A stretch of 64,000 bases of DNA, from NCBI GenBank assembly GCA_045534635.1, contig JAZSKB010000004.1:617-64616 (forward strand). The letters are read 5' to 3'. The stretch's first letter is position 1, and every line of letters starts with the position of its first letter. This document shows positions 1 to 55,299 of the stretch, piece by piece. The notes under the pieces were generated by a model. The model had not been told where the DNA came from, searched no databases, and was given only the letters and a program-made list of their open reading frames with translations. The DNA comes from Bacteroidales bacterium. GTDB lineage: Bacteria > Bacteroidota > Bacteroidia > Bacteroidales > WCHB1-69. The position numbers were made by a program, and so were the translations under genes.

Positions 1-180
1 GAAATAATAACGTTATACAATTATGACCCTGTTGGCAATGTTACCTATGTATATAGTGAATATCCATGGAAAGGAGCTTTTGATGAATCTTTCTGTTATG
101 ACGAAGCAGACCAACTTACTAATGCTGTTAATGACAAAGATTTTTACAACTTGCAGACACCGAAATCAACCCACAAATAG
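1..180 (+). CDS. RHS/YD-repeat protein, 3' end (partial; 5' end outside window)
   Basis: Frame 1 is open from the window edge to TAG 178-180. The translation EIITLYNYDPVGNVTYVYSE...FCYDEADQLTNAV shows two YD-repeat units. Confidence 0.5.
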   Translation, partial: EIITLYNYDPVGNVTYVYSEYPWKGAFDESFCYDEADQLTNAVNDKDFYNLQTPKSTHK

Positions 181-5883: not shown

Positions 5884-6531
5884 TTAAAATTTGCTAACTT
5901 TTGGAGCATTCCCAAGAGGAATATGAATAATATATTTTTCGTTGAAATAGGTATCAGAAAACCAATTTTGAATAGGATATTTTATTGTTTTTCGAGGAAC
6001 TTGTTGCAATTCTTGGGTTAAATCTCCTCCTTTGAGATAAAGAATTCCATTGGCAATGGTATTAAAAGAATCTTTACACACACGATGATGAATCCATTTA
6101 AAGAAAATAGGTAATGTTGTAACGGCTCGACTTACAATAAAATCATATTCACAATTTAATTCTTCGGCTCGAATTTGTGTGCATTCTACGTTGTTTAGTT
6201 GCAAACTATCTACAACGGCTTGAGCAACTTTTATTTTTTTTCCTATAGAATCAACTAAATGAAAATGGGCAAAAGGAAACATAATCGCTAAAGGAATTCC
6301 AGGAAAACCTCCTCCTGTGCCGACATCTAAAATTGTAGTTTGATTTTTGAATTGTAATAATTTGGCGATACTCAAAGAGTGTAAAATATGATTAGTGGAA
6401 ATATTTTCAATATCTTTGCGAGAAATAACGTTAATTTGTGCATTCCAAAATTTATACAAATCAGGCAAAGCATTGAATTGTTCCTGTTGTTGTTGAGTCA
6501 ATGTCGGAAAATGTTGTTCTATGATATTCAT
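5884..6531 (-). CDS. rsmG: 16S rRNA m7G527 methyltransferase
   Basis: GTGGGFPGIPLAI SAM motif; 215 aa. Confidence 0.9.
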   Translation of the reverse strand: MNIIEQHFPTLTQQQQEQFNALPDLYKFWNAQINVISRKDIENISTNHILHSLSIAKLLQFKNQTTILDVGTGGGFPGIPLAIMFPFAHFHLVDSIGKKIKVAQAVVDSLQLNNVECTQIRAEELNCEYDFIVSRAVTTLPIFFKWIHHRVCKDSFNTIANGILYLKGGDLTQELQQVPRKTIKYPIQNWFSDTYFNEKYIIHIPLGNAPKVSKF

Positions 6532-6545
6532 TTATTTAGAATTTG

Positions 6546-6976
6546 TTTGCAAAAGTATCATTTTTTTCTATAAAATTATAGGTTTTAAATTCAACTTAGA
6601 AAGAATAGGTTCAATAAAAATATCACCAATAACACCGAAAAAAGCAACATAAATATTTCTTGCTGTAAATCAGCATATTGAAGAAATTTAGAAAAGTTTT
6701 AAATTTCACAAAAAATTTTTTTCATTTTTTTATCAAAAACCGACCACTTTGGCACAATATTTGTTGTGTATAAAATGTTGAATGATAACAATATGCTAAA
6801 AAATGAGAGTTTATAAAAAACATACAAAAAACACTTATAACTGACTGATAGACAGTAGTATTAGTGGATGTTTTATAGTGTATTGTTTTGAGGCTCGTTA
6901 TTACAAGCTACCTGCATTAAATTTAAGTTATAACATCAACTTATAAAGTTATAAAAAAAGTGTTATCTTTGTAAAA
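6546..6976 (-). repeat. Dispersed intergenic repeat, copy A (full length, both promoter arms)
   Basis: Hand-aligned to copies B-G. 6546-6628 is identical to the reverse complement of 36458-36540. It contains -7 boxes at 6550-6557 (minus strand, toward rsmG) and 6964-6971 (plus strand, toward the hydrolase). Confidence 0.9.
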
Positions 6977-7000
6977 TCATTTTTATAATTTTATATAGTG

Positions 7001-23305: not shown

Positions 23306-23398
23306 CCTCAAAACAATACACTAAAAACAGTCCATAACACTACTGTTTATCAGATAGTTATAATCGATTTTTTTGATATGTTTTTTATAAACTGTCAT
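23306..23398 (+). repeat. Dispersed intergenic repeat, copy D (segment 1 only)
   Basis: CCTCAAAACAATACACTAAAAA...CTACTGTTTATCAGATAG...TTTTTTATAAACTGTCAT aligns to segment 1 of copies A, B, F and G. Confidence 0.85.
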
Positions 23399-26400: not shown

Positions 26401-29274
26401 ATCGTTGCAAGTAAATTCAAAATGAATAACAACATCTTCCAAATAAGAACCATAAACTATATGTAATGTATCACCAATATAAATGGTTGTTTTATCAACA
26501 TCAAGAAAAATAGGTTCATAACGGGTACAATTGTTAGATTCTGCATCGTTTAATGAAAAAATATGTTGATTGGTAACTTCTTGATTAAAAGTATCTTTTG
26601 CGGTAAGCGTAATACGATAGTACCCTAAATGTTTTTTGTTAAAAATTTTACGTAAATCAAGAAAAGATGTATCATTTGTGAAAAGAGAACCTTCTAATAT
26701 TTTATTTCCTTTCCAATTTTCTGGAAGATGATTATTTTTATAAGAAAGATAAGGGAAGTTTTTGCGATATTCTTTTTCTGTAAAATTCTCTACATCAGGA
26801 ATTGGAAACATATCTCTTGAATGGTAATAAATAGATGGAACTTCCAATCGTTCTATTGAATAATGTACAAGTGTATTTTGATTTTCACCACTTAAATTGG
26901 TAGTTTGCAAAGAAAAAGATTGTTTTGATTGGTGAATATCATTATTTTCTGGAATATCTAAATGAATATATAAACTTTTGCTTCCAACATAAACCGCTGT
27001 TGAACAAGAATGTGTTTCTCCAGAAATATCAGTGACATCTGCAAAAATAATATATTGATAAACAGGGAAATAATTTCTATCTTCTATTGAAGATTCTGCA
27101 ATAAAAGTTAATTCAAATTCACCGTTGTCATTTGTGGTAGTTTCTCCTTGAACTATTTCTTTTGTTGTCATATTGTTCCACCAACGACAATAAGGAAATT
27201 TACTATGCCGAACAATGTGATATGTTACTTTAGCATTATCGATAGCGTAACCAGAGTACGCCGTACATTCTCCTTTAATTGTTATAGATTGGTCTAATTT
27301 AAAGCAAGCTTTAGGTTGATTGATTTTTACTTCAAAATTAGGTCGTTTGTATTCTTCAACAGAAAAATAAGTCCTTTCATAATATCCTTTAGAATTGACA
27401 ATTCCCAAACTAAAAGTGCCTGTATTGCCTGTTGAAGGAAGCGTAAAATTACCAGAAAAAGAACCATATTGATTGGTGGTAACTTTTATAGAATCTATGG
27501 CTTGATAATTTGCATCGTAAAGCATTATTTGATAGTTTGTGTTAGAAAGAACACTATGATTTGAATCAGATTTTACTGCAATACCCTTGAAATACACTTG
27601 CTGACCGGGACGATAAATTTGTCTATCAGTAAAAAAATAAACTTTTTGAAAAGATGAAGTTTTGTCATTATAATTACTATAAAAGTAATCATCAAAAGAA
27701 AATTTTTCATTTTTATAAGAAACATGTATAGTTCCTATTCTACTATATTTCAAGATATTGTTAAAATATGCATATCCATTTTTATCTGTTCTTTTTAATT
27801 GGATAGATTTATTTTTTTGCATTTCAATTTTTATGGTTGCATTTTCTAAAGGATAACCTGTCTGTCTATCAAAAACATAATAAATTAAATCTGCATTTTT
27901 ACTATTATAAACAAAGTCAATGTTATTAACAAGAATTTTTATTATTGCACAAGTACTACCAATTTTCATTGTATCTTGCATTTCAGAAAAAGGACGATTG
28001 GAATACCACATTATATAATGTCCTGATTCCATTGCAGGAAAAATAGCATCAAAAGTTTTGGGACGATAGTCATATTTGTTGTGAGCACAAATTGTAAATG
28101 TTTTTGCAACAGATAATTTTTTGAGAAATTTTATCGGAGAAGTTTTTTTCATTTCATCAAAAGTAGATTCATCTACGGCAAACAATTGAATGTAAATAGA
28201 ATCGCAATTGGTACTAACAAAAGACATTAGCCCTATTTGATTTGGAATATAAGTTTCTGATAATGTTGCAGTTATAGATGATTTTTTTATTTCTTGTATT
28301 TTGTTTTTTGCATTTATCGCAGAATAAGAATTAGGGGCAAACTCAATTGCTTTTTCATACCATTCTATTGCAATTTTATAATCATTGTAATATTCGGGAA
28401 AATTTATAGTATCGTATTTTTCCCCTCTTTTTTGGTAATAATCTCCTAAAACATAACAAATTTGTTCATATCCTTTTTGATTTTGATAGTTATTTTCTAA
28501 ATTATTTAAAGCATTGAAATACAATTCTTTTTTATTTGATAACGTACATTTTGTTTGTAAATAGTTCAATCGTAAAAGTGCGATATATATTTGTAATTCA
28601 GAAGATTGCTCTTGATAAAATGATGTCAATGTTTGTAAAATTTTTAAAGCTTGATAACTAAAAGACAGTGTATCTGATGTATTGATTGATATTTTAGCAA
28701 ATATTTGATTATCAGAAAAAAAACAAGTATCATTTATATCAAAAGGACGAATAGGAATAGGCATTTCGTCTATAGTTTGATTGTAAAATTGTATCGCAAG
28801 ACAAGCCAATGCTTCGTATAAAGAAGAATAGTACATTATAGAAAAACTGTCTAAATGAGTAAATAATTTTTGATATTGTTCATAAGGAATTTGAACAAGA
28901 GAATCCTTGTCTTTTAATGATAGTTCATAGTGCATAACAATTTGTTCTACAATAGTTTGAATATCCCATTCGTGAAGAGATTTTTCCAAAATATTAGTAT
29001 TTTCTATTTTGCTAATAAATAGCATTTTATAAATGTTTTCTTTGTAAAAATTTTCCAAAAACAAAGCCATATAACTATGCCAAAGTGCTTTTTCAGAAAT
29101 ATTTCCTGTATTGATACAATTTTGAATGTAAGAATATGCGGAATCGTAAAAATTATCGTATTTTTTTAGAGAATTAATGTGTTCTTGTTGAGCAAAAATA
29201 TTTTGAGTATTCGATTGAGCAAAAAGACAACTATTGCATACAAATAATATTATGATAAATATAACTTTCTTCAT
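23416..29274 (-). CDS. Alpha-2-macroglobulin family protein with thioester motif
   Basis: About 1950 aa. YPYECYEQ (CxEQ thioester, codons at 25027-25038). I use the start at M12 (ATG 29274) because the track ATG overlaps the -7 box. N-terminal signal peptide. Confidence 0.85.
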   Translation of the reverse strand: MKKVIFIIILFVCNSCLFAQSNTQNIFAQQEHINSLKKYDNFYDSAYSYIQNCINTGNISEKALWHSYMALFLENFYKENIYKMLFISKIENTNILEKSLHEWDIQTIVEQIVMHYELSLKDKDSLVQIPYEQYQKLFTHLDSFSIMYYSSLYEALACLAIQFYNQTIDEMPIPIRPFDINDTCFFSDNQIFAKISINTSDTLSFSYQALKILQTLTSFYQEQSSELQIYIALLRLNYLQTKCTLSNKKELYFNALNNLENNYQNQKGYEQICYVLGDYYQKRGEKYDTINFPEYYNDYKIAIEWYEKAIEFAPNSYSAINAKNKIQEIKKSSITATLSETYIPNQIGLMSFVSTNCDSIYIQLFAVDESTFDEMKKTSPIKFLKKLSVAKTFTICAHNKYDYRPKTFDAIFPAMESGHYIMWYSNRPFSEMQDTMKIGSTCAIIKILVNNIDFVYNSKNADLIYYVFDRQTGYPLENATIKIEMQKNKSIQLKRTDKNGYAYFNNILKYSRIGTIHVSYKNEKFSFDDYFYSNYNDKTSSFQKVYFFTDRQIYRPGQQVYFKGIAVKSDSNHSVLSNTNYQIMLYDANYQAIDSIKVTTNQYGSFSGNFTLPSTGNTGTFSLGIVNSKGYYERTYFSVEEYKRPNFEVKINQPKACFKLDQSITIKGECTAYSGYAIDNAKVTYHIVRHSKFPYCRWWNNMTTKEIVQGETTTNDNGEFELTFIAESSIEDRNYFPVYQYIIFADVTDISGETHSCSTAVYVGSKSLYIHLDIPENNDIHQSKQSFSLQTTNLSGENQNTLVHYSIERLEVPSIYYHSRDMFPIPDVENFTEKEYRKNFPYLSYKNNHLPENWKGNKILEGSLFTNDTSFLDLRKIFNKKHLGYYRITLTAKDTFNQEVTNQHIFSLNDAESNNCTRYEPIFLDVDKTTIYIGDTLHIVYGSYLEDVVIHFEFTCNDSIIYQEHKMINKGQIHFDFPIKKEHLGYLHCNIFVHQHNHFYNQTKKISVQETNKNIYFEYVTFRNYLQPGEKEQWHFKIKNAEGKPIVAELLCNMYDASLDAFVKHNYNFSLPIIDGFHYTYFDYKDFNHETIRSRFFEKNHNPLINILSPQWINKPSNISFKYPICCAGTMKNNVRPRNAKKIGMVDDENVLSIVSVKEEVSVKEEASITKSVLPNLRSNFNETAFFYPHLQSDSNGNIIFSATMPESLTKWKMHGIAHNQNLYYGLFEQFIQTQKDLMLVVNYPRFLREGDTIIFTAKVVNMSVKKIAGHVSLQISNSIDNKPLDIIYQVNKDTFNLSKGESDIVSFTLIIPHEIGAINCKTMAISDIHSDGEQKILPILSNRMLVTETMPIYVNKGQTKTFTFDKFKQAYKHLTDSNNTLSNYKFTFEFTANPLWYALQSLPYLIEYPYECYEQIFSRLYANTIASTIVNSSPEIKAVFMQWQQEDSNAFLSNLEKNSELKNIAIENSPWLLEAQSEKENKQRISNLFDTKRINLELNKAQKALEKGQRNDGGWSWFSGGYRSNFFITSHIVSGCGHLQTMNISENLNANTLRKAIQFIDNSMQKWYDSLKNRSISDNFLSYNVTQYLYARSFFFEQFPIAEKNKKMFDFCINQAQKYWTEKNLYGQTLIALSLYRSGDKITAEKIITSIKSKAQYSDEMGMWWHKEGLGWYWYEAPIERQALMIEAFETISKDSESVAKMQLWLLKQRQSQNWGSTKSTTAACYALLLRGNNNLSKLHKTKITIGEQIIYSDTISSIESGTGYFKMSWNNDEITPDMGNISLQQIDNGTSWGSCFWQYFENLDKISSAKTSLAINKQLYKIIFNDRGEHLSEIKNNNTIAVGDKIKVRIVISTDRDMEYVHLKDMRASCFEPTNILSVYRYQGGLMYYESTRDVATNFFIEYLPKGTYVFEYTLIATQKGQFSNGITTIQCMYAPEFTSHSEGIRINVK

Positions 29275-29295
29275 AAGTATCCTTTTTATTTTTTG

Positions 29296-29303
29296 CAAAA
29301 ATA
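29296..29303 (-). promoter_or_regulatory. -7 promoter box TATTTTTG (A2M)
   Basis: TAnnTTTG match on the minus strand, 22 nt upstream of ATG 29274. Confidence 0.55.
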
Positions 29304-29542
29304 TCATTTTTTACAGAAACCGTAAAATGTTTTGCAAATTTTTTCTTGAAAGCATATCTCCTTTACATGTTTACAACCCACCAAAATCAAAAATATCATA
29401 CTTTTTAGAATAAAATATTACATGGTTTGGTAGTGAATTAGAAATTTATAAATTATATTACGTTTTTTTCGCATATAAATACCTTCAATGCGGGTGGATT
29501 GTATATGAGTAAGATGTGAGCCATGGTTTTTCGTTCATTAAC

Positions 29543-29887
29543 GGGTCTCTGCTGGTAAATGTAGGAGACTTGTTATTACGAGCCTCAAAACAATACACTA
29601 TAAAATATCCATTAATACTACTGTCTATCAGGTAGTTATAAGTATTTTTTGTGTGTTTTTTATAAACTCTCATTTTTTAGCATATTGTTATTATTCAACG
29701 TTTTATACACAACAAATATTGTACCAAAGTGGTCAATTTTTGATAAAAAAATGAAAAAAATTTTTTGTAAAGTTTAAAACTTTCCTGAATTTATTTAATA
29801 TGTTGATTTTCAGTAAGAAAGGTTTGTGTTGTTTTTTCAAGTGTTCATGGTGTGTACTATTAGGTTTCTTTTGATTATAAATTCAAC
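29543..29887 (+). repeat. Dispersed intergenic repeat, copy B (segments 1-3, diverged 4)
   Basis: Aligns with the reverse complement of copy A along its length, and with copy G over about 190 nt (about 11 substitutions plus one 3-nt indel by hand count). Confidence 0.9.
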
Positions 29888-35558: not shown

Positions 35559-36299
35559 ATGAGAAAATTTGTTGCTTTATTTATTATATTGATTTATAAT
35601 GGGTTCGTTTTTGGAAATGATTTTCAAGAAGGAAATGAAGCCTATAATAACAAAGATTTCAAAACTGCAATTAATTTGTATGAAAATTGTGTTAATCAAG
35701 GTGTTGCAAATCCTATTTTGTTTTTCAATTTAGGTAATGCTTATTTCAAAAATGAAAATCTTGGTAAAGCAATTTTATGGTACGAAAGGGCTTTGCGTTT
35801 AGAACCAAATAATGAAGATATTATTCATAATTTGGCTTTTGCAAATACTCAAATTGTTGATAAAGTGAACAATGATGTTTTTTGGATTGAACAATTTTTT
35901 AACAAAATTCTTTTTCTTTTCTCTACACGTTCTTGGGCTTTTCTCTCTATTATTTTTGTATTTTTAACTTGTTTTTGTATTGCTATTTTGCTTATTGCTA
36001 AACAATCTAAAATGAGAATGTTTTTCTTTTTTTCAACAATTACTTTTCTTATTTTATTTATTATCAGTATAATAATTGCTTCTATTAGTTATAAGCAAAC
36101 GACAAATAACGATAAAATTATTGTTACAAAATTGTCTGTTGTTGTCAAAAGTACACCCGATTCTTCGGGTACGACTTTATTTACTGTTCACGAAGGTATC
36201 AAAGGAATAATTACTGATAAAACCGATAAATGGATTGAAGTAAAATTTCCTAACGACGAAAAAGGCTGGATAGAATCTACTTCAGCAGAAATAATTTAA
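35559..36299 (+). CDS. TPR + SH3b membrane protein (BatE-like)
   Basis: N-terminal TPR (LGNAYFKNENLGKAILWYERALRLEPNN), central TM helices, and a C-terminal SH3-like segment. Confidence 0.55.
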   Translation: MRKFVALFIILIYNGFVFGNDFQEGNEAYNNKDFKTAINLYENCVNQGVANPILFFNLGNAYFKNENLGKAILWYERALRLEPNNEDIIHNLAFANTQIVDKVNNDVFWIEQFFNKILFLFSTRSWAFLSIIFVFLTCFCIAILLIAKQSKMRMFFFFSTITFLILFIISIIIASISYKQTTNNDKIIVTKLSVVVKSTPDSSGTTLFTVHEGIKGIITDKTDKWIEVKFPNDEKGWIESTSAEII

Positions 36300-36300
36300 T

Positions 36301-36541
36301 TGTTAATCAATGTTTATATATAGCAAGAATCGTGCCAAAGTGGTCGATTTTTGATAAAAATAAAAAAAAATTTTTTGTAAAATTTAAAATTTTCCTAAAC
36401 TTTCACAATATGTTGATTTTCAGCAAGAAAAGTTTGTATTGCTTTTTTCGGTATTACTGGTGATATTTTTATTGAACCTATTCTTTCTAAGTTGAATTTA
36501 AAACCTATAATTTTATAGAAAAAAATGATACTTTTGCAAAG
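36301..36541 (+). repeat. Dispersed intergenic repeat, copy C (segments 2-4 with left promoter arm)
   Basis: 36458-36540 is 83/83 identical to the reverse complement of 6546-6628. It ends in the -7 box TACTTTTG (36529-36536), which faces kdsA. Confidence 0.9.
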
Positions 36542-36576
36542 TTGTTTCTTCAAATCAATATCAAATAATTTTTTCA

Positions 36577-36584
36577 TAAATTTG
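36577..36584 (+). promoter_or_regulatory. -7 promoter box TAAATTTG (kdsA proximal)
   Basis: TAnnTTTG match 45 nt upstream of GTG 36629. It is a second promoter candidate, downstream of the repeat-borne one. Confidence 0.5.
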
Positions 36585-36628
36585 CAAGAACAATAAAGTA
36601 AGTTTATTTACAAGATTATAAAACAATA

Positions 36629-37447
36629 GTGGAAAGCAAAGATTTATTTAAGAGTATTATTGAGCAATGTCAAGAAAATTTTTTTCTCATAGCCGGTCCT
36701 TGTGTCGTAGAAGACGAAACAATGCCAATGAAGATAGCCTCTCAATTGAAAGAGATTACCACAGCATTGAATATTCCATTTATTTTTAAGGCATCGTATC
36801 GAAAAGCCAATCGTTCGAGTGTAAATTCTTTTACTGGTATCGGAGACGAAAAAGCACTTAAATTAATAGCGGAAGTAAGACAAAAATTGCAGGTTCCCGT
36901 TTTGACAGATATTCATAGTGCTCAAGAAGCAAAAATGGCAGCAGATTATGTTGATGTGTTGCAAATACCTGCTTTTTTGTGCCGACAAACCGATTTGTTG
37001 GTATCCGCGGCACAAACAGGAAAAATAGTCAATGTGAAAAAAGGACAATTTTTATCTCCTGAAGCAATGAAATTTGTCGTAGAAAAAGTACGTTCTTCTG
37101 GAAATGATAAAGTAATGATAGTAGAAAGAGGAACAATGTTTGGATACCAAGATTTGGTTGTAGATTTTCGAGGAGCAACCATAATGCGAGAAAATAATTG
37201 TCCTATAGTGATAGATGTAACGCATTCATTGCAACAACCTAATCAAAGTTCTGGCGTTAGCGGAGGAAGAAGAAATTTAATAGCAACTATTGCCAAAGCA
37301 GGAATTGCTGTTGGGTTCGATGGCGTTTTTATGGAAACACATTATGATGTAACTCATGCAAAATCAGACGCTTCTAATATGATTCCTCTTGATGAAGTAA
37401 AAGCCTTGTTAGAACAACTTGTTAAAATACGAAAAGCTATTTCTTAA
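36629..37447 (+). CDS. kdsA: 3-deoxy-8-phosphooctulonate synthase
   Basis: LIAGPCVVE and FKASYRKANRSS motifs; 272 aa; GTG start. Confidence 0.9.
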   Translation: MESKDLFKSIIEQCQENFFLIAGPCVVEDETMPMKIASQLKEITTALNIPFIFKASYRKANRSSVNSFTGIGDEKALKLIAEVRQKLQVPVLTDIHSAQEAKMAADYVDVLQIPAFLCRQTDLLVSAAQTGKIVNVKKGQFLSPEAMKFVVEKVRSSGNDKVMIVERGTMFGYQDLVVDFRGATIMRENNCPIVIDVTHSLQQPNQSSGVSGGRRNLIATIAKAGIAVGFDGVFMETHYDVTHAKSDASNMIPLDEVKALLEQLVKIRKAIS

Positions 37448-46348: not shown

Positions 46349-46461
46349 TATTTTGCAAAGATAACACTTTTTTATAACTTTCTAAGTTGAATTTTTAATC
46401 GCACTCCAAGTAGTCAATTTTTGATAAAAAAATGAAAAAAATTTTTTTTGCAAAGTTTTTG
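46349..46461 (+). repeat. Dispersed intergenic repeat, copy E (right promoter arm plus part of segment 2; segment 1 absent)
   Basis: The reverse complement of 46349-46390 aligns to 6936-6976 with 2 mismatches and 1 indel. 46400-46458 aligns to segment 2. It contains the hflX -7 box (46356-46363, minus strand). Confidence 0.85.
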
Positions 46462-48788: not shown

Positions 48789-48881
48789 AAATTAATAAGC
48801 AATTTTGAAATAAAAATTCCTGATATGACTTCAACCTAAAAAAATATTGAACAATAAACAATAAGAATATAAGTAAAAATG

Positions 48882-48972
48882 ATAGTTCAAAAAAATGACA
48901 CAAAAAAATTGCTTGTAACTACCTGATATACAGTAGCATTATAGGCTTTTTATAGTGTATTGTTTTGAGGCT
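48882..48972 (-). repeat. Dispersed intergenic repeat, copy F (segment 1 only)
   Basis: ...CTACCTGATATACAGTAG...TTTTATAGTGTATTGTTTTGAGGCTG aligns to segment 1 of copy A in the same strand sense. Confidence 0.85.
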
Positions 48973-49125
48973 GTTTTTTTTCATGAACTTTTGGATGAAT
49001 ATTTAAATTACTTCGCAAAAGGTAAGATTACAAATTCATCACCAAAAATTGAGAAAGTATATTATCAAAATCAAGCTTTGCAAAACAAAGAACTTCCACC
49101 TCGTAATGGGAATGACTACCAATAA
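48937..49125 (+). pseudogene. Start-less gene remnant running out of repeat F
   Basis: Open frame with no ATG: ...FIVYCFEAVFFHELLDEYLNYFAKGKITNSSPKIEKVYYQNQALQNKELPPRNGNDYQ*. The first ~12 codons are repeat-derived. Confidence 0.3.
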
Positions 49126-49154
49126 ATTCCAATAACATATAAAATATTAACATT

Positions 49155-52563: not shown

Positions 52564-52671
52564 TTACCAAGTCCTAAAAAATATTACATTTTTTAGGACT
52601 TGCTGTTTTAAAAATATCAAACAAAAAACTATATTGGTAAAATTACCCACAACATCATAATTGTATAACAT
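52564..52671 (-). pseudogene. RHS/YD-repeat gene fragment
   Basis: The reverse complement of 52636-52681 matches window positions 1-45 at 38/45 nt. The fragment translates (EII)MLYNYDVVGNFTNI... and then runs into the hairpin. Confidence 0.6.
52569..52601. terminator. 14-bp perfect hairpin (bidirectional terminator candidate)
   Basis: AAGTCCTAAAAAAT-ATTAC-ATTTTTTAGGACTT, 40 nt after the M49-like gene stop. Confidence 0.65.
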
Positions 52672-52708
52672 TATTATTTCGTTGTTAATTCTCCTAATTT
52701 CTATTCTG

Positions 52709-52716
52709 CAAAGATA
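52709..52716 (-). promoter_or_regulatory. Orphan -7 promoter box TATCTTTG facing the YD fragment
   Basis: The minus strand reads AAAAAAAGTGTTATCTTTG, the same extended sequence as the hflX and hydrolase promoters. No intact minus-strand gene lies downstream. Confidence 0.5.
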
Positions 52717-52728
52717 ACACTTTTTTTG

Positions 52729-52736
52729 TACTTTTG
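52729..52736 (+). promoter_or_regulatory. -7 promoter box TACTTTTG (island operon)
   Basis: TAnnTTTG match 58 nt upstream of ATG 52794, back-to-back with the orphan box. Confidence 0.55.
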
Positions 52737-52793
52737 CATTTGGATTTCAAAATGAAATCACTTATAGAGTCTAACATTTAAAAATTTGTAATT

Positions 52794-54853: not shown

Positions 54854-55093
54854 ATGAAAAGAGTTGTTTTATTTTTTGTCTGCGTAACTTTGTTATCGTC
54901 TTGCCGCCAAAGCAAATCGGATATCGTGAAAGATTATATAGATGACATAAATAGTTATGACTCTAAAAAATTGAATCAGTTACTAACTGATAATTTTATG
55001 TATTATGGCAAAGATACTTTAAACAAAACTATCTATATGACAATTATGGATTATGAAAAAAATATTGGTCAAAAAGCGAGTCTCTACTTGTAA
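54854..55093 (+). CDS. Lipoprotein, truncated NTF2/SnoaL-like domain
   Basis: Lipobox LLSSC. At 79 aa it is too short for a full NTF2-like fold. The last 5 codons and the stop lie inside repeat copy G. Confidence 0.45.
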   Translation: MKRVVLFFVCVTLLSSCRQSKSDIVKDYIDDINSYDSKKLNQLLTDNFMYYGKDTLNKTIYMTIMDYEKNIGQKASLYL

Positions 55094-55299
55094 AAACCAG
55101 TGCTTTATAATAACGAGCCTCAAAACAACACACTATAAAATAGCTATTAAAACTACTGTCTATCAGGAAGTTATAAGCAATTTTTTTGGTGTGTTTTTTA
55201 TAAACTCTCATTTTTTAGCATATTGTTGTTATTCAACATTTTATACACAACAAATATTGTTCCAAAGTGGTCAATTTTTGATAAAAAAGTGAAAAAAAT
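55078..55299 (+). repeat. Dispersed intergenic repeat, copy G (segments 1-2)
   Basis: Aligns to copy B 29543-29760. Its start overlaps the 3' end of the preceding ORF. Confidence 0.9.

What the first reader, a model, noticed from the sequence alone, without database searches (positions are those of the whole stretch)
36458..36540. 83-nt stretch identical between two copies, ending at an outward-facing promoter
36458-36540 is 83/83 identical to the reverse complement of 6546-6628; I checked this base by base. In both copies the identity ends 4 nt after a TACTTTTG -7 box, roughly where transcription should start. The box fires outward, toward kdsA in copy C and toward rsmG in copy A. Perfect identity over 83 nt of non-coding AT-rich DNA contrasts with about 90% identity in the rest of the element. 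That suggests recent copying, gene conversion or strong constraint. It looks like a portable promoter module supplying transcription to unrelated housekeeping genes. kdsA also has its own proximal TAAATTTG box at 36577-36584.
Basis: partly seen in the sequence, partly recalled or inferred. Interest (0 to 1): 0.6.

Follow-up and report, generated by a model that had tools for sequence, protein, structure and literature searches.

The report
Rhs-relic repeat ending in outward promoter
The 83 identical bases are the promoter-bearing end piece of a patchwork repeat, built around decayed Rhs toxin-gene fragments, that litters the DNA between genes in this gut-type Bacteroidales genome. Their perfect identity most likely reflects recent copying between two loci, which is real but a fairly ordinary kind of event.

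Summary
36458-36540 is 83/83 identical to the reverse complement of 6546-6628, and the identity ends at position -1 of a TACTTTTG -7 box that faces rsmG at one locus and kdsA at the other.

The stretch is not a stand-alone element. It is the outermost module of a lineage-specific, mosaic repeat family with 8 copies or fragments in 64 kb, all intergenic. On the opposite strand, the family's core is a decayed end of an Rhs repeat-associated core domain (TIGR03696).

Left of the boundary the two copies differ at 24 of 147 columns. Right of it they differ at 0 of 83 (permutation P = 3e-4). That is a recombination breakpoint. Selection is an unlikely cause of the identity, because another strain carries two substitutions in the module and still keeps TAnnTTTG.

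The promoter call is good in silico:
- The flanking context resembles the gene-proximal boxes of this genome.
- The core matches the native promoter of the alpha-2-macroglobulin-family (A2M) gene at 20 of 21 bases.
- It is the only box upstream of rsmG, 19 nt from the ATG.

At kdsA the repeat sits where an ancestral upstream gene was lost. I found no terminal inverted repeats (TIRs), target-site duplications (TSDs) or transposase.

"Portable promoter" is therefore only partly supported: there are two copies, probably homogenised by gene conversion, and promoter activity is untested.

The parts
36458..36540 (+). Module 3, copy C: the 83-nt stretch. Its first 5 nt (TGGTG) still belong to module 2. 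It carries a 14-bp palindrome CTATAATTTTATAG, an A-run and the -7 box.
6546..6628 (-). Module 3, copy A, identical to copy C
36529..36536 (+). TACTTTTG -7 box. Predicted +1 is at 36541, 88 nt before the kdsA GTG.
6550..6557 (-). TACTTTTG -7 box. Predicted +1 is at 6545, 14 nt before the rsmG ATG (6531). It is the only TAnnTTTG box on the rsmG strand in the 466-nt spacer upstream of rsmG (6532-6997).
36300..36457 (+). Copy C: tail of module 1 plus module 2. It is 84% identical to A and 82% to B, and starts right after the stop codon of the TPR/SH3 gene.
6629..6918 (-). Copy A: module 2 (6624-6774) and module 1 (6775-6918)
6803..6913 (+). Decayed Rhs core-end relic on the strand opposite to the repeat orientation used here (..YCFEARYYKLP..)
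6928..6977 (+). Module 0: a second repeated promoter segment (TATCTTTG at 6964-6971) facing the alpha/beta-hydrolase gene at 6998. It is 88% identical to 46350-46398.
29503..29852 (+). Copy B: modules 1 and 2, no module 3. Homology to A stops at 29852, which is 5 nt into the 83-nt stretch. The Rhs relic is on the - strand at 29673-29503.
55065..55299 (+). Copy E: module 1 and the first third of module 2. The Rhs relic is on the - strand at 55211-55065.
23306..23398 (+). Copy F: a module 1 fragment
48857..48972 (-). Copy G: a module 1 fragment
46350..46458 (+). Copy D: module 0 (its promoter faces hflX on the - strand), then 17 nt of module 3 (CTTTCTAAGTTGAATTT, 46378-46394), then the module 2 core (46408-46458)
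52630..52747 (-). Copy H: decayed start of an orphan rhs gene. It has the promoter TATCTTTG, a MEIRRINN-like start with ATG mutated to ATA, and a YD repeat like window 1-51.
36541..36628 (+). Non-repeated spacer upstream of kdsA. About 36550-36628 is a relic of the 3' end of a T9SS C-terminal-domain gene that abuts kdsA in a relative. It contains the proximal box TAAATTTG at 36577-36584.
5884..6531 (-). rsmG (GidB)
36629..37447 (+). kdsA

Best explanation
The 83 nt are the outermost module of a lineage-specific, mosaic intergenic repeat family. The conserved core of that family is the decayed 5' flank and core-end of orphan Rhs (YD-repeat) toxin cassettes.

The module ends in a canonical Bacteroidota sigma-A promoter (A-run, TG, TACTTTTG, CA) that fires out of the repeat. 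The repeat/unique junction lies at -1.

Copies A and C, inverted and 30 kb apart, were recently homogenised over this module by non-reciprocal recombination (ectopic gene conversion), with a breakpoint at 36457/36458. That event, not selection, explains 83/83 identity next to about 84%.

Functionally, the promoter is most likely the working promoter of rsmG. It is probably an extra upstream promoter for kdsA, which lost its ancestral upstream gene in a rearrangement at this site.

Shown: the repeat anatomy, the Rhs origin, the breakpoint, the promoter-like sequence, and the lost upstream gene.
Inferred: gene conversion as the mechanism, and promoter activity.
For: Mosaic family:
- There are 8 intergenic copies or fragments sharing different sub-segments.
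- Module 3 is found only in A and C.

Rhs origin:
- A further copy from another metagenome (P0123 on L014) reaches TIGR03696 Rhs_assc_core at 40 bits against a cut-off of 32.5, E = 4e-10.
- Independent Rhs core-end proteins, one of them named as such by NCBI, hit the antisense strand of copies B (E = 5e-12), E (3e-5) and A (0.02).

Breakpoint:
- Differences are 24/147 on the left and 0/83 on the right, P = 2.8e-4.
- It lies within 5 nt of the point where copy B's homology ends.
- Module 2 is about equally diverged among A, B and C, at 82-87%.

Identity is not held by constraint:
- Strain L019 has 2 substitutions in 39 nt of module 3 but keeps TAnnTTTG.
- In three strain variants of the C locus, positions just left of the boundary carry the state of paralogue A.

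Promoter:
- The context score of 2.8 lies inside the range of 16 gene-proximal boxes and beats 131 of 137 other boxes.
- 20 of 21 bases are identical to the native promoter 21 nt upstream of the signal-peptide start of the A2M gene.
- It is the only TAnnTTTG box on the rsmG strand in the spacer upstream of rsmG.

Rearrangement at C:
- In an 89%-identical kdsA relative, a T9SS-CTD gene abuts kdsA with no spacer. About 80 nt of that gene's 3' end survive at 36550-36628.
Against: - There is no transcript data, so promoter activity and use are unproven.
- There is no clear -33 TTTG at the usual spacing.
- With only two copies, the right-hand end of the module is defined only by where A and C diverge. 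A one-off copy of native rsmG promoter DNA to the kdsA locus fits equally well.
- The strain variants next to the boundary alternate A-like and C-like states. That pattern is not a single clean conversion tract.
- The rest of the genome could not be searched, so further copies of module 3 may exist.
Confidence: 0.55

Rival explanations
1. One-off capture. The 83 nt are native rsmG promoter DNA. They were copied once to the kdsA locus when a break in the gene upstream of kdsA was repaired from copy A, with synthesis running out of the shared module 2 into A's unique flank.
For: - Module 3 occurs only at A and C.
- kdsA has its own proximal box, so the extra promoter looks like a passenger.
- The C locus is a rearrangement junction.
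- At A the box sits at a normal distance, 19 nt, from the ATG.
Against: - Copy D carries 17 nt of module 3 in another arrangement.
- L014 continues about 15 nt into module 3.
- Both observations suggest the module is older than a single A-to-C event.
- Module 2 of C is not A-like (84%), so one event cannot have copied both modules.
Confidence: 0.22
2. Active non-autonomous mobile element (MITE or IS-derived). It carries an outward promoter at its terminus and inserts upstream of genes, as IS elements do in Bacteroides.
For: - The family is dispersed and intergenic, at about 1 copy per 8 kb.
- Copy A has outward -7 boxes at both ends, which gives it an imperfect inverted-repeat look.
- Synteny differs at the repeats between assemblies.
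Against: - No two copies share both ends. Copies are truncated at different points.
- There is no target-site duplication or inverted terminal repeat at C. I checked the flanks of 36300 and 36540 by eye.
- There is no transposase in the window.
- There are no hits in PLSDB or IMG/VR.
- The family core is an Rhs coding relic.
Confidence: 0.13
3. The identity is kept by purifying selection. The 83 nt would be a regulatory region (for example the palindrome as an operator) or would encode a small RNA or peptide.
For: - There is a perfect 14-bp palindrome, CTATAATTTTATAG, in the -39 to -26 region.
- TAnnTTTG is retained in the variant strain.
Against: - There are two substitutions in 39 nt in a strain that differs by only 0.65% overall.
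- Rfam gives no match.
- Fold z-scores are -1.0 and -0.8.
- The antisense ORF has no relatives other than its own locus among 1.8 billion representative proteins.
- No promoter needs 83 invariant bases.
Confidence: 0.05
4. Assembly artefact: a collapsed or chimeric repeat in a metagenome-assembled genome.
For: The window appears to come from a metagenome-assembled contig. L011 and L012 diverge from it at another repeat copy.
Against: An independent contig spans the C locus identically. Unitigs from at least 10 runs contain both junctions, module 3 to the rsmG flank and module 3 to the kdsA flank.
Confidence: 0.03

Closest known systems
Rhs elements as repeated 'rearrangement hot spots', and orphan rhs-CT cassettes (E. 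coli, Salmonella, Serratia; e.g. PMC7043789, PMC10539506, found but not read; the rest is my own knowledge)
   Same: - They are fragments that keep only the end of the Rhs core (TIGR03696) without the YD-repeat body.
- They are present in several copies.
- They provide homology for recombination.
- Orphans can have their own promoters. L015 shows one in this lineage.
   Different: - Here the fragments are decayed, with stops and frameshifts.
- They have no toxin tip or immunity ORF behind them.
- They lie singly between housekeeping genes rather than in an array after a main rhs gene.
- They are fused to AT-rich non-coding modules that carry outward promoters.
Outward-facing promoters of insertion sequences in Bacteroides (IS1186, IS942, IS4351 and others, which activate cfiA, cepA and ermF; my own knowledge, not checked here)
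   Same: Repeated DNA whose terminus carries a -7 TAnnTTTG promoter reading into the adjacent gene.
   Different: There is no transposase, no terminal inverted repeats and no target-site duplication. Only two copies of the promoter module are known.
Small intergenic repeats that bring promoters, such as the Neisseria Correia elements (my own knowledge)
   Same: Short, dispersed, non-coding repeats next to genes. They can supply transcription signals and serve as recombination substrates.
   Different: Correia elements have defined TIRs and a TA duplication. This family has neither, and it has a coding-relic origin.
Ectopic gene conversion between dispersed or inverted repeats (for example tufA/tufB and rRNA operons; my own knowledge)
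   Same: There is a sharp switch from diverged to identical sequence between paralogous copies on one chromosome, and the boundary is polymorphic between strains.
   Different: Here the converted DNA is non-coding and only 83 nt long. Conversion is inferred, not observed.

Membership tests
Rhs repeat-associated core domain (TIGR03696) relic | Sequence match to the TIGR03696 profile above its curated cut-off | tested here: met
   P0123, the translation of a family copy on L014, scores 40 bits against a cut-off of 32.5, E = 4e-10, over profile positions 30-75 of 76. The in-window copy B (P0121) does not reach the profile on its own. It is hit by Rhs core-end proteins in tblastn at E = 5e-12.
Rhs repeat-associated core domain (TIGR03696) relic | A YD-repeat body upstream in the same reading frame (a full-length Rhs protein) | tested here: not met
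   Upstream of the FEARYY motif there are only short ORFs of 22-62 aa and AT-rich non-coding sequence.
Orphan rhs-CT / immunity cassette | A variable C-terminal toxin domain and an immunity gene downstream of the core end | tested here: not met
   In A, B and E the relic stops within 10-35 codons of the motif and is followed by unrelated genes. A related intact-looking orphan exists only on L015.
Bacteroidota sigma-A promoter | TAnnTTTG at -12 to -5 | tested here: met
   TACTTTTG is present. Its flanking context scores like the gene-proximal boxes of this window and better than 131 of 137 other boxes. The motif position is taken from PMC9723704.
Bacteroidota sigma-A promoter | A -33 TTTG about 19 bp upstream | tested here: inconclusive
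   By eye there is no TTTG at that spacing, only a TTG 37 nt upstream. The -33 motif was not recovered in F. johnsoniae either (PMC7366714).
Bacteroidota sigma-A promoter | A mapped transcription start | not testable with these tools
   No transcript data are available.
MITE / IS-derived mobile element | Terminal inverted repeats and target-site duplication | tested here: not met
   The repeat finder inverted-repeat list has no arms flanking a single copy. Flanks at C were inspected. Copies end at different internal points.
MITE / IS-derived mobile element | A cognate transposase or full-length parent element | tested here: not met
   None was found among the window proteins scanned. There are no PLSDB or IMG/VR matches.
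Known structured RNA (Rfam) | A covariance-model match | tested here: not met
   At gathering thresholds only 2 tRNAs were found in the window. No match with E up to 1 was found in 6500-7000.

The most novel reading that the evidence does not exclude
Relics of Rhs cassettes have been co-opted as recombination-spread 'promoter patches'. Homology in the relic lets non-reciprocal recombination carry an adjacent outward promoter to new loci. Genes orphaned by rearrangements, here kdsA, are thereby re-armed without any transposase. That would be a transposon-independent route of promoter mobility in a repeat-rich gut Bacteroidales lineage.
Probability: 0.12. Interest if true: 0.55.

Novelty: new member of a known kind. 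Interest (0 to 1): 0.3.

Why it matters
If the promoter is active, this is a clear small example of repeated DNA rewiring transcription of essential genes after a rearrangement: kdsA for LPS synthesis and rsmG for 16S rRNA methylation. The repeated DNA here comes from decayed toxin-gene cassettes, not from a transposon.

It also gives a practical warning. In this lineage the repeats break short-read assemblies and mark points where contigs from different samples diverge. Synteny around them in metagenome-assembled genomes should therefore be treated with care.

Conceptually it adds little. Rhs sequences as recombination substrates, repeat-borne outward promoters and gene conversion between repeats are all established.

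Tried and rejected
- **Structured RNA.** Rfam at gathering thresholds over the whole window, and with E up to 1 on 6500-7000, found nothing relevant. Folding 36313-36540 on both strands gave z = -1.0 and -0.8. Rejected.
- **Coding element.** Short ORFs in the repeat are not conserved as proteins. The antisense 60-aa ORF over module 3 finds only its own locus among 1.8 billion representatives.
- **Intrinsic terminator in module 2 (AGCAA..TTGCT plus a T-run).** The scan tool does not call it, and its position is not consistent between copies.
- **Copies elsewhere.** These searches found nothing:
  - the module 2 core and module 1 core patterns in GTDB species genomes;
  - the module 1 core in JGI metagenomes;
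  - module 3 in IMG/VR;
  - the whole A element in PLSDB.
- **rsmG relatives in JGI metagenomes.** None were found, so the ancestral rsmG upstream region could not be examined.
- **Exact look-up of the 43-aa antisense ORF at copy A.** It is not on record.
- **What worked.** Searching with a spurious ORF translated from the repeat led to the Rhs link.
- **MITE reading.** Rejected for lack of TIRs, TSDs and constant ends.

Full report
**1. The observation**

36458-36540 is identical at 83 of 83 positions to the reverse complement of 6546-6628 (independently).

The window is 30% G+C. It comes from a Bacteroidales-type organism. The best named kdsA relatives are Bacteroidales metagenome-assembled genomes, and the exact kdsA protein is on record in NCBI, ENA and Logan on contigs of up to 86,941 nt.

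TACTTTTG lies at 36529-36536 (+) and 6557-6550 (-). In flavobacteria the sigma-A box TAnnTTTG occupies -12 to -5 (PMC9723704; consensus also in PMC7366714). On that basis the last identical base is -1 and the first divergent base (36541 / 6545) is the predicted start.

The box faces kdsA and rsmG:
- 36629-37447 is kdsA. It has the DAHP_synth_1 domain and its homologues are named KDO-8-P synthase.
- 5884-6531(-) is rsmG, with a GidB match at 3e-35.

The proximal kdsA box at 36577-36584 is also there.

Outside the 83 nt, the A/C alignment has 24 differences in 147 columns, which is 84% identity.

**2. More than chance, and not an artefact**

If the 24 differences are placed at random in the 230 columns, a run of 83 or more appears in 0.028% of trials. 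No other pair of copies shares more than 39 exact bases.

An independent ENA scaffold (L024, 99.7% identical to the window over 4 kb) is identical to the window over the 350 nt compared (36288-36637).

Logan contigs carrying kdsA all begin 111 nt upstream of it. Those carrying rsmG begin 32-53 nt upstream of it. In both cases the start lies inside module 3, as expected when a de Bruijn graph branches at a repeat edge. This holds in more than ten sequencing runs.

**3. What the 83 nt belong to**

A self-comparison shows a family of repeated intergenic DNA:

| Copy | Coordinates | Strand |
|---|---|---|
| A | 6546-6977 | - |
| B | 29503-29852 | + |
| C | 36300-36540 | + |
| D | 46350-46458 | |
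| E | 55065-55299 | + |
| F | 23306-23398 | + |
| G | 48857-48972 | - |
| H | 52630-52747 | |

The copies are mosaics. Taking copy A, read towards rsmG, as the reference:

| Module | Length | Present in |
|---|---|---|
| 0 | 50 nt | A, D and partly H |
| 1 | about 145 nt | A, B, E, F, G |
| 2 | about 150 nt | A, B, C, and in part D and E |
| 3 | 78 nt | A and C only |

Module 0 holds a TATCTTTG box on the other strand.

Copy B's homology to A stops at 29852. That is 5 nt into the 83-nt stretch, so the block of perfect identity coincides with a module junction.

A sensitive search with module 3 finds only three things in the window:
- the two full copies;
- a 17-nt piece in D;
- a 21-nt promoter-core match at 29312-29292.

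**4. Origin of the family**

No ORF in the repeat is conserved as a protein. However, the 62-aa ORF on the opposite strand of module 1 in copy B found three database entries.

One of them, P0123, comes from a 679-nt ENA contig (L014) that carries a further, better preserved copy. It reads ..YYFEARYYRAPTFISRDPLMNEKPWLTPYHYCSNNPVGRIDPTG.. It matches NCBIfam TIGR03696, the Rhs repeat-associated core domain, at 40 bits against a cut-off of 32.5 (E = 4e-10).

Searching with P0123 returned short Rhs core-end proteins, one of them named as such by NCBI. In tblastn these hit the antisense strand of copy B (E = 5e-12), copy E (3e-5) and copy A (0.02).

Contig L015 shows what an intact relative looks like. 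It has a promoter (TATCTTTG), a short leader (MEIRRINN...), the core end, and a variable tail followed by another ORF. That is an orphan rhs-CT cassette with its own promoter. Copy H in the window is a decayed homologue of that promoter and start, joined to a YD repeat like the one at window 1-51.

The repeat family is therefore built around decayed orphan-Rhs cassettes. In the rhs sense direction, modules 2 and 3 are the DNA upstream of the relic. Module 3 is the far end, and its promoter points away from the relic.

The family core patterns are absent from 185,579 GTDB species genomes and from JGI metagenomes. Module 3 is absent from IMG/VR, and the whole copy-A element is absent from PLSDB. 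So the family is lineage-specific as far as these collections show.

**5. Is the box a promoter?**

Sixteen TAnnTTTG boxes that lie 15-190 nt upstream of genes or tRNAs in this window share a stereotyped context: an A/T run, TG, the box, then CA.

I scored context only, leaving out the invariant box letters:
- The module 3 box scores 2.8.
- The gene-proximal boxes score -8.8 to 17.5 in leave-one-out scoring.
- The median of the other 137 boxes in the window is -15.2, and only 6 of them reach 2.8.

The last 21 nt of module 3 match, at 20 of 21 positions, the sequence around a TATTTTTG box (29303-29296). That box lies 21 nt upstream of the ATG at 29274, which opens the signal peptide MKKVIFII... 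of the large alpha-2-macroglobulin-family (A2M) gene.

Upstream of rsmG this is the only TAnnTTTG box on the rsmG strand in the 466-nt spacer, 19 nt from the ATG.

There is no clear -33 TTTG. No transcript data exist. Activity is inferred.

**6. Why perfect identity**

Module 2 is about equally diverged among A, B and C, at 82-87%. The divergence continues right up to 36457, with 7 differences in the last 38 nt (my count from the alignment). It then drops to zero. That is a recombination breakpoint, not a gradient of constraint.

Constraint is also contradicted by strain data:
- In Logan contig L019, which is 99.35% identical to the window over 3.7 kb, the rsmG copy of module 3 has two substitutions in 39 nt (ATGTTACCTTTG). 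Both leave TAnnTTTG intact.
- Because that unitig reaches further into the module than the others, the other copy in that strain probably does not share these substitutions. This is an inference, not a direct observation.
- Three strain variants of the antisense ORF at the C locus differ from the window just left of the boundary. At two of the three variable residues they carry the state of paralogue A (V40I and I46T).

So the edge of the A=C identity is itself polymorphic. Recent, possibly recurrent, ectopic gene conversion between the two inverted copies is the simplest reading. The A-like and C-like states alternate in two of the variants, so this is not one clean tract.

**7. The kdsA locus**

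In a relative with 89% identical KdsA (L007), a gene for a protein with a T9SS-type C-terminal tail ends on the kdsA start codon, leaving no spacer. A 74% relative (L008) has the same arrangement.

In the window, about 36550-36628 still aligns with the 3' end of that gene (relic ...KFIYKIIKQ*). The rest of the gene is gone. The repeat, followed by a TPR/SH3 gene, takes its place.

So the repeat sits at a rearrangement junction, and kdsA lost whatever transcription came from upstream. The proximal TAAATTTG box lies inside the relic.

Contigs L011 and L012, from the same species at 97-99.6% identity, also diverge from the window at or inside copy B. This is either real rearrangement or chimeric assembly at the repeat.

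**8. Mechanism and rivals**

Best reading (0.55): a promoter-bearing end module of an Rhs-relic repeat, homogenised between two loci by gene conversion. It acts as the rsmG promoter and as an added upstream promoter for kdsA.

Rivals:
- A one-off copy of native rsmG promoter DNA into the kdsA locus during repair (0.22).
- A true mobile element with an outward promoter (0.13). This is weakened by the lack of TIRs, TSDs, constant ends or a transposase.
- Selection on a regulatory or RNA function (0.05).
- An assembly artefact (0.03).

**9. Comparison with the known, and verdict**

The family resembles three known things:
- Rhs orphan fragments, and Rhs as "rearrangement hot spots".
- Bacteroides IS elements and Neisseria Correia elements, in supplying outward promoters.
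- Classic gene conversion between dispersed repeats.

It fails the membership tests for an intact Rhs or orphan cassette: there is no YD body, toxin tip or immunity gene. It also fails those for a MITE or IS.

I rate it a new, lineage-specific member of known kinds: a dispersed repeat derived from a coding relic, carrying a promoter. Interest is 0.3.

Noticed in passing
window 1-177 (+): The window opens inside a YD-repeat (Rhs) reading frame (EIITLYNYDPVGNVTYV...FCYDEADQLTNA...) that stops at 177 without a core end. It is a truncated rhs fragment next to a rubrerythrin gene and a Fur-family gene. Its first 51 nt are 82% complementary to 52630-52680.
   Followed up: partly
window 29272-29307 (-): The longest ORF of the 1963-aa alpha-2-macroglobulin-family gene starts at 29307. 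The signal peptide (MKKVIFIIILFVCNSC...) starts at the ATG at 29274. The stretch between holds a TATTTTTG promoter box (29303-29296), so the real start is probably 29274.
   Followed up: partly
L011:1286-3865 and L012:1-3700, compared with window 29294 and 29766: Two ENA contigs of the same species (99.6% and 96.9% identical) leave the window's gene order next to or inside repeat copy B. L011 departs about 210 nt beyond its Rhs-relic end, at the start of the A2M gene, and goes on to a YitT-family membrane gene. L012 departs inside module 2 and goes on to an ABC-transporter gene and a methylmalonyl-CoA mutase gene. This is either strain rearrangement at the repeat or chimeric assembly.
   Followed up: partly
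window 54854-55093 (+): A 79-aa lipoprotein-like ORF (MKRVVLFFVCVTLLSSC...) has no Pfam match. Its 3' end runs into the Rhs relic of copy E on the opposite strand, so it may have been truncated by the repeat.
   Followed up: no
window 36594-36629 (+), L007:560-717: kdsA starts with GTG, overlapping a TAG stop of the relic frame (TA[G]TG). In the relative the intact upstream gene ends TA[A]TG on an ATG start. So the start-codon change goes with the loss of the upstream gene.
   Followed up: partly
window 52568-52602: A 35-nt near-perfect palindrome (AAGTCCTAAAAAATATTACATTTTTTAGGACTT) lies just downstream of the M49-peptidase gene. It is probably its terminator hairpin.
   Followed up: no
window 48973-49154 (+): Beyond the Rhs-homologous end of repeat fragment G, an open frame reads ELLDEYLNYFAKGKITNSSPKIEKVYYQNQALQNKELPPRNGNDYQ*. 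It looks like a coding relic of unknown origin upstream of a 155-aa ORF that has no Pfam match.
   Followed up: no
window 1378, 6964, 8393, 11103, 46518, 49638 and others: Promoters in this genome are unusually stereotyped (A/T run, TG, TA[TC][CT]TTTG, CA). Short 17-21-nt matches between unrelated upstream regions are therefore expected and should not be read as repeat copies.
   Followed up: yes
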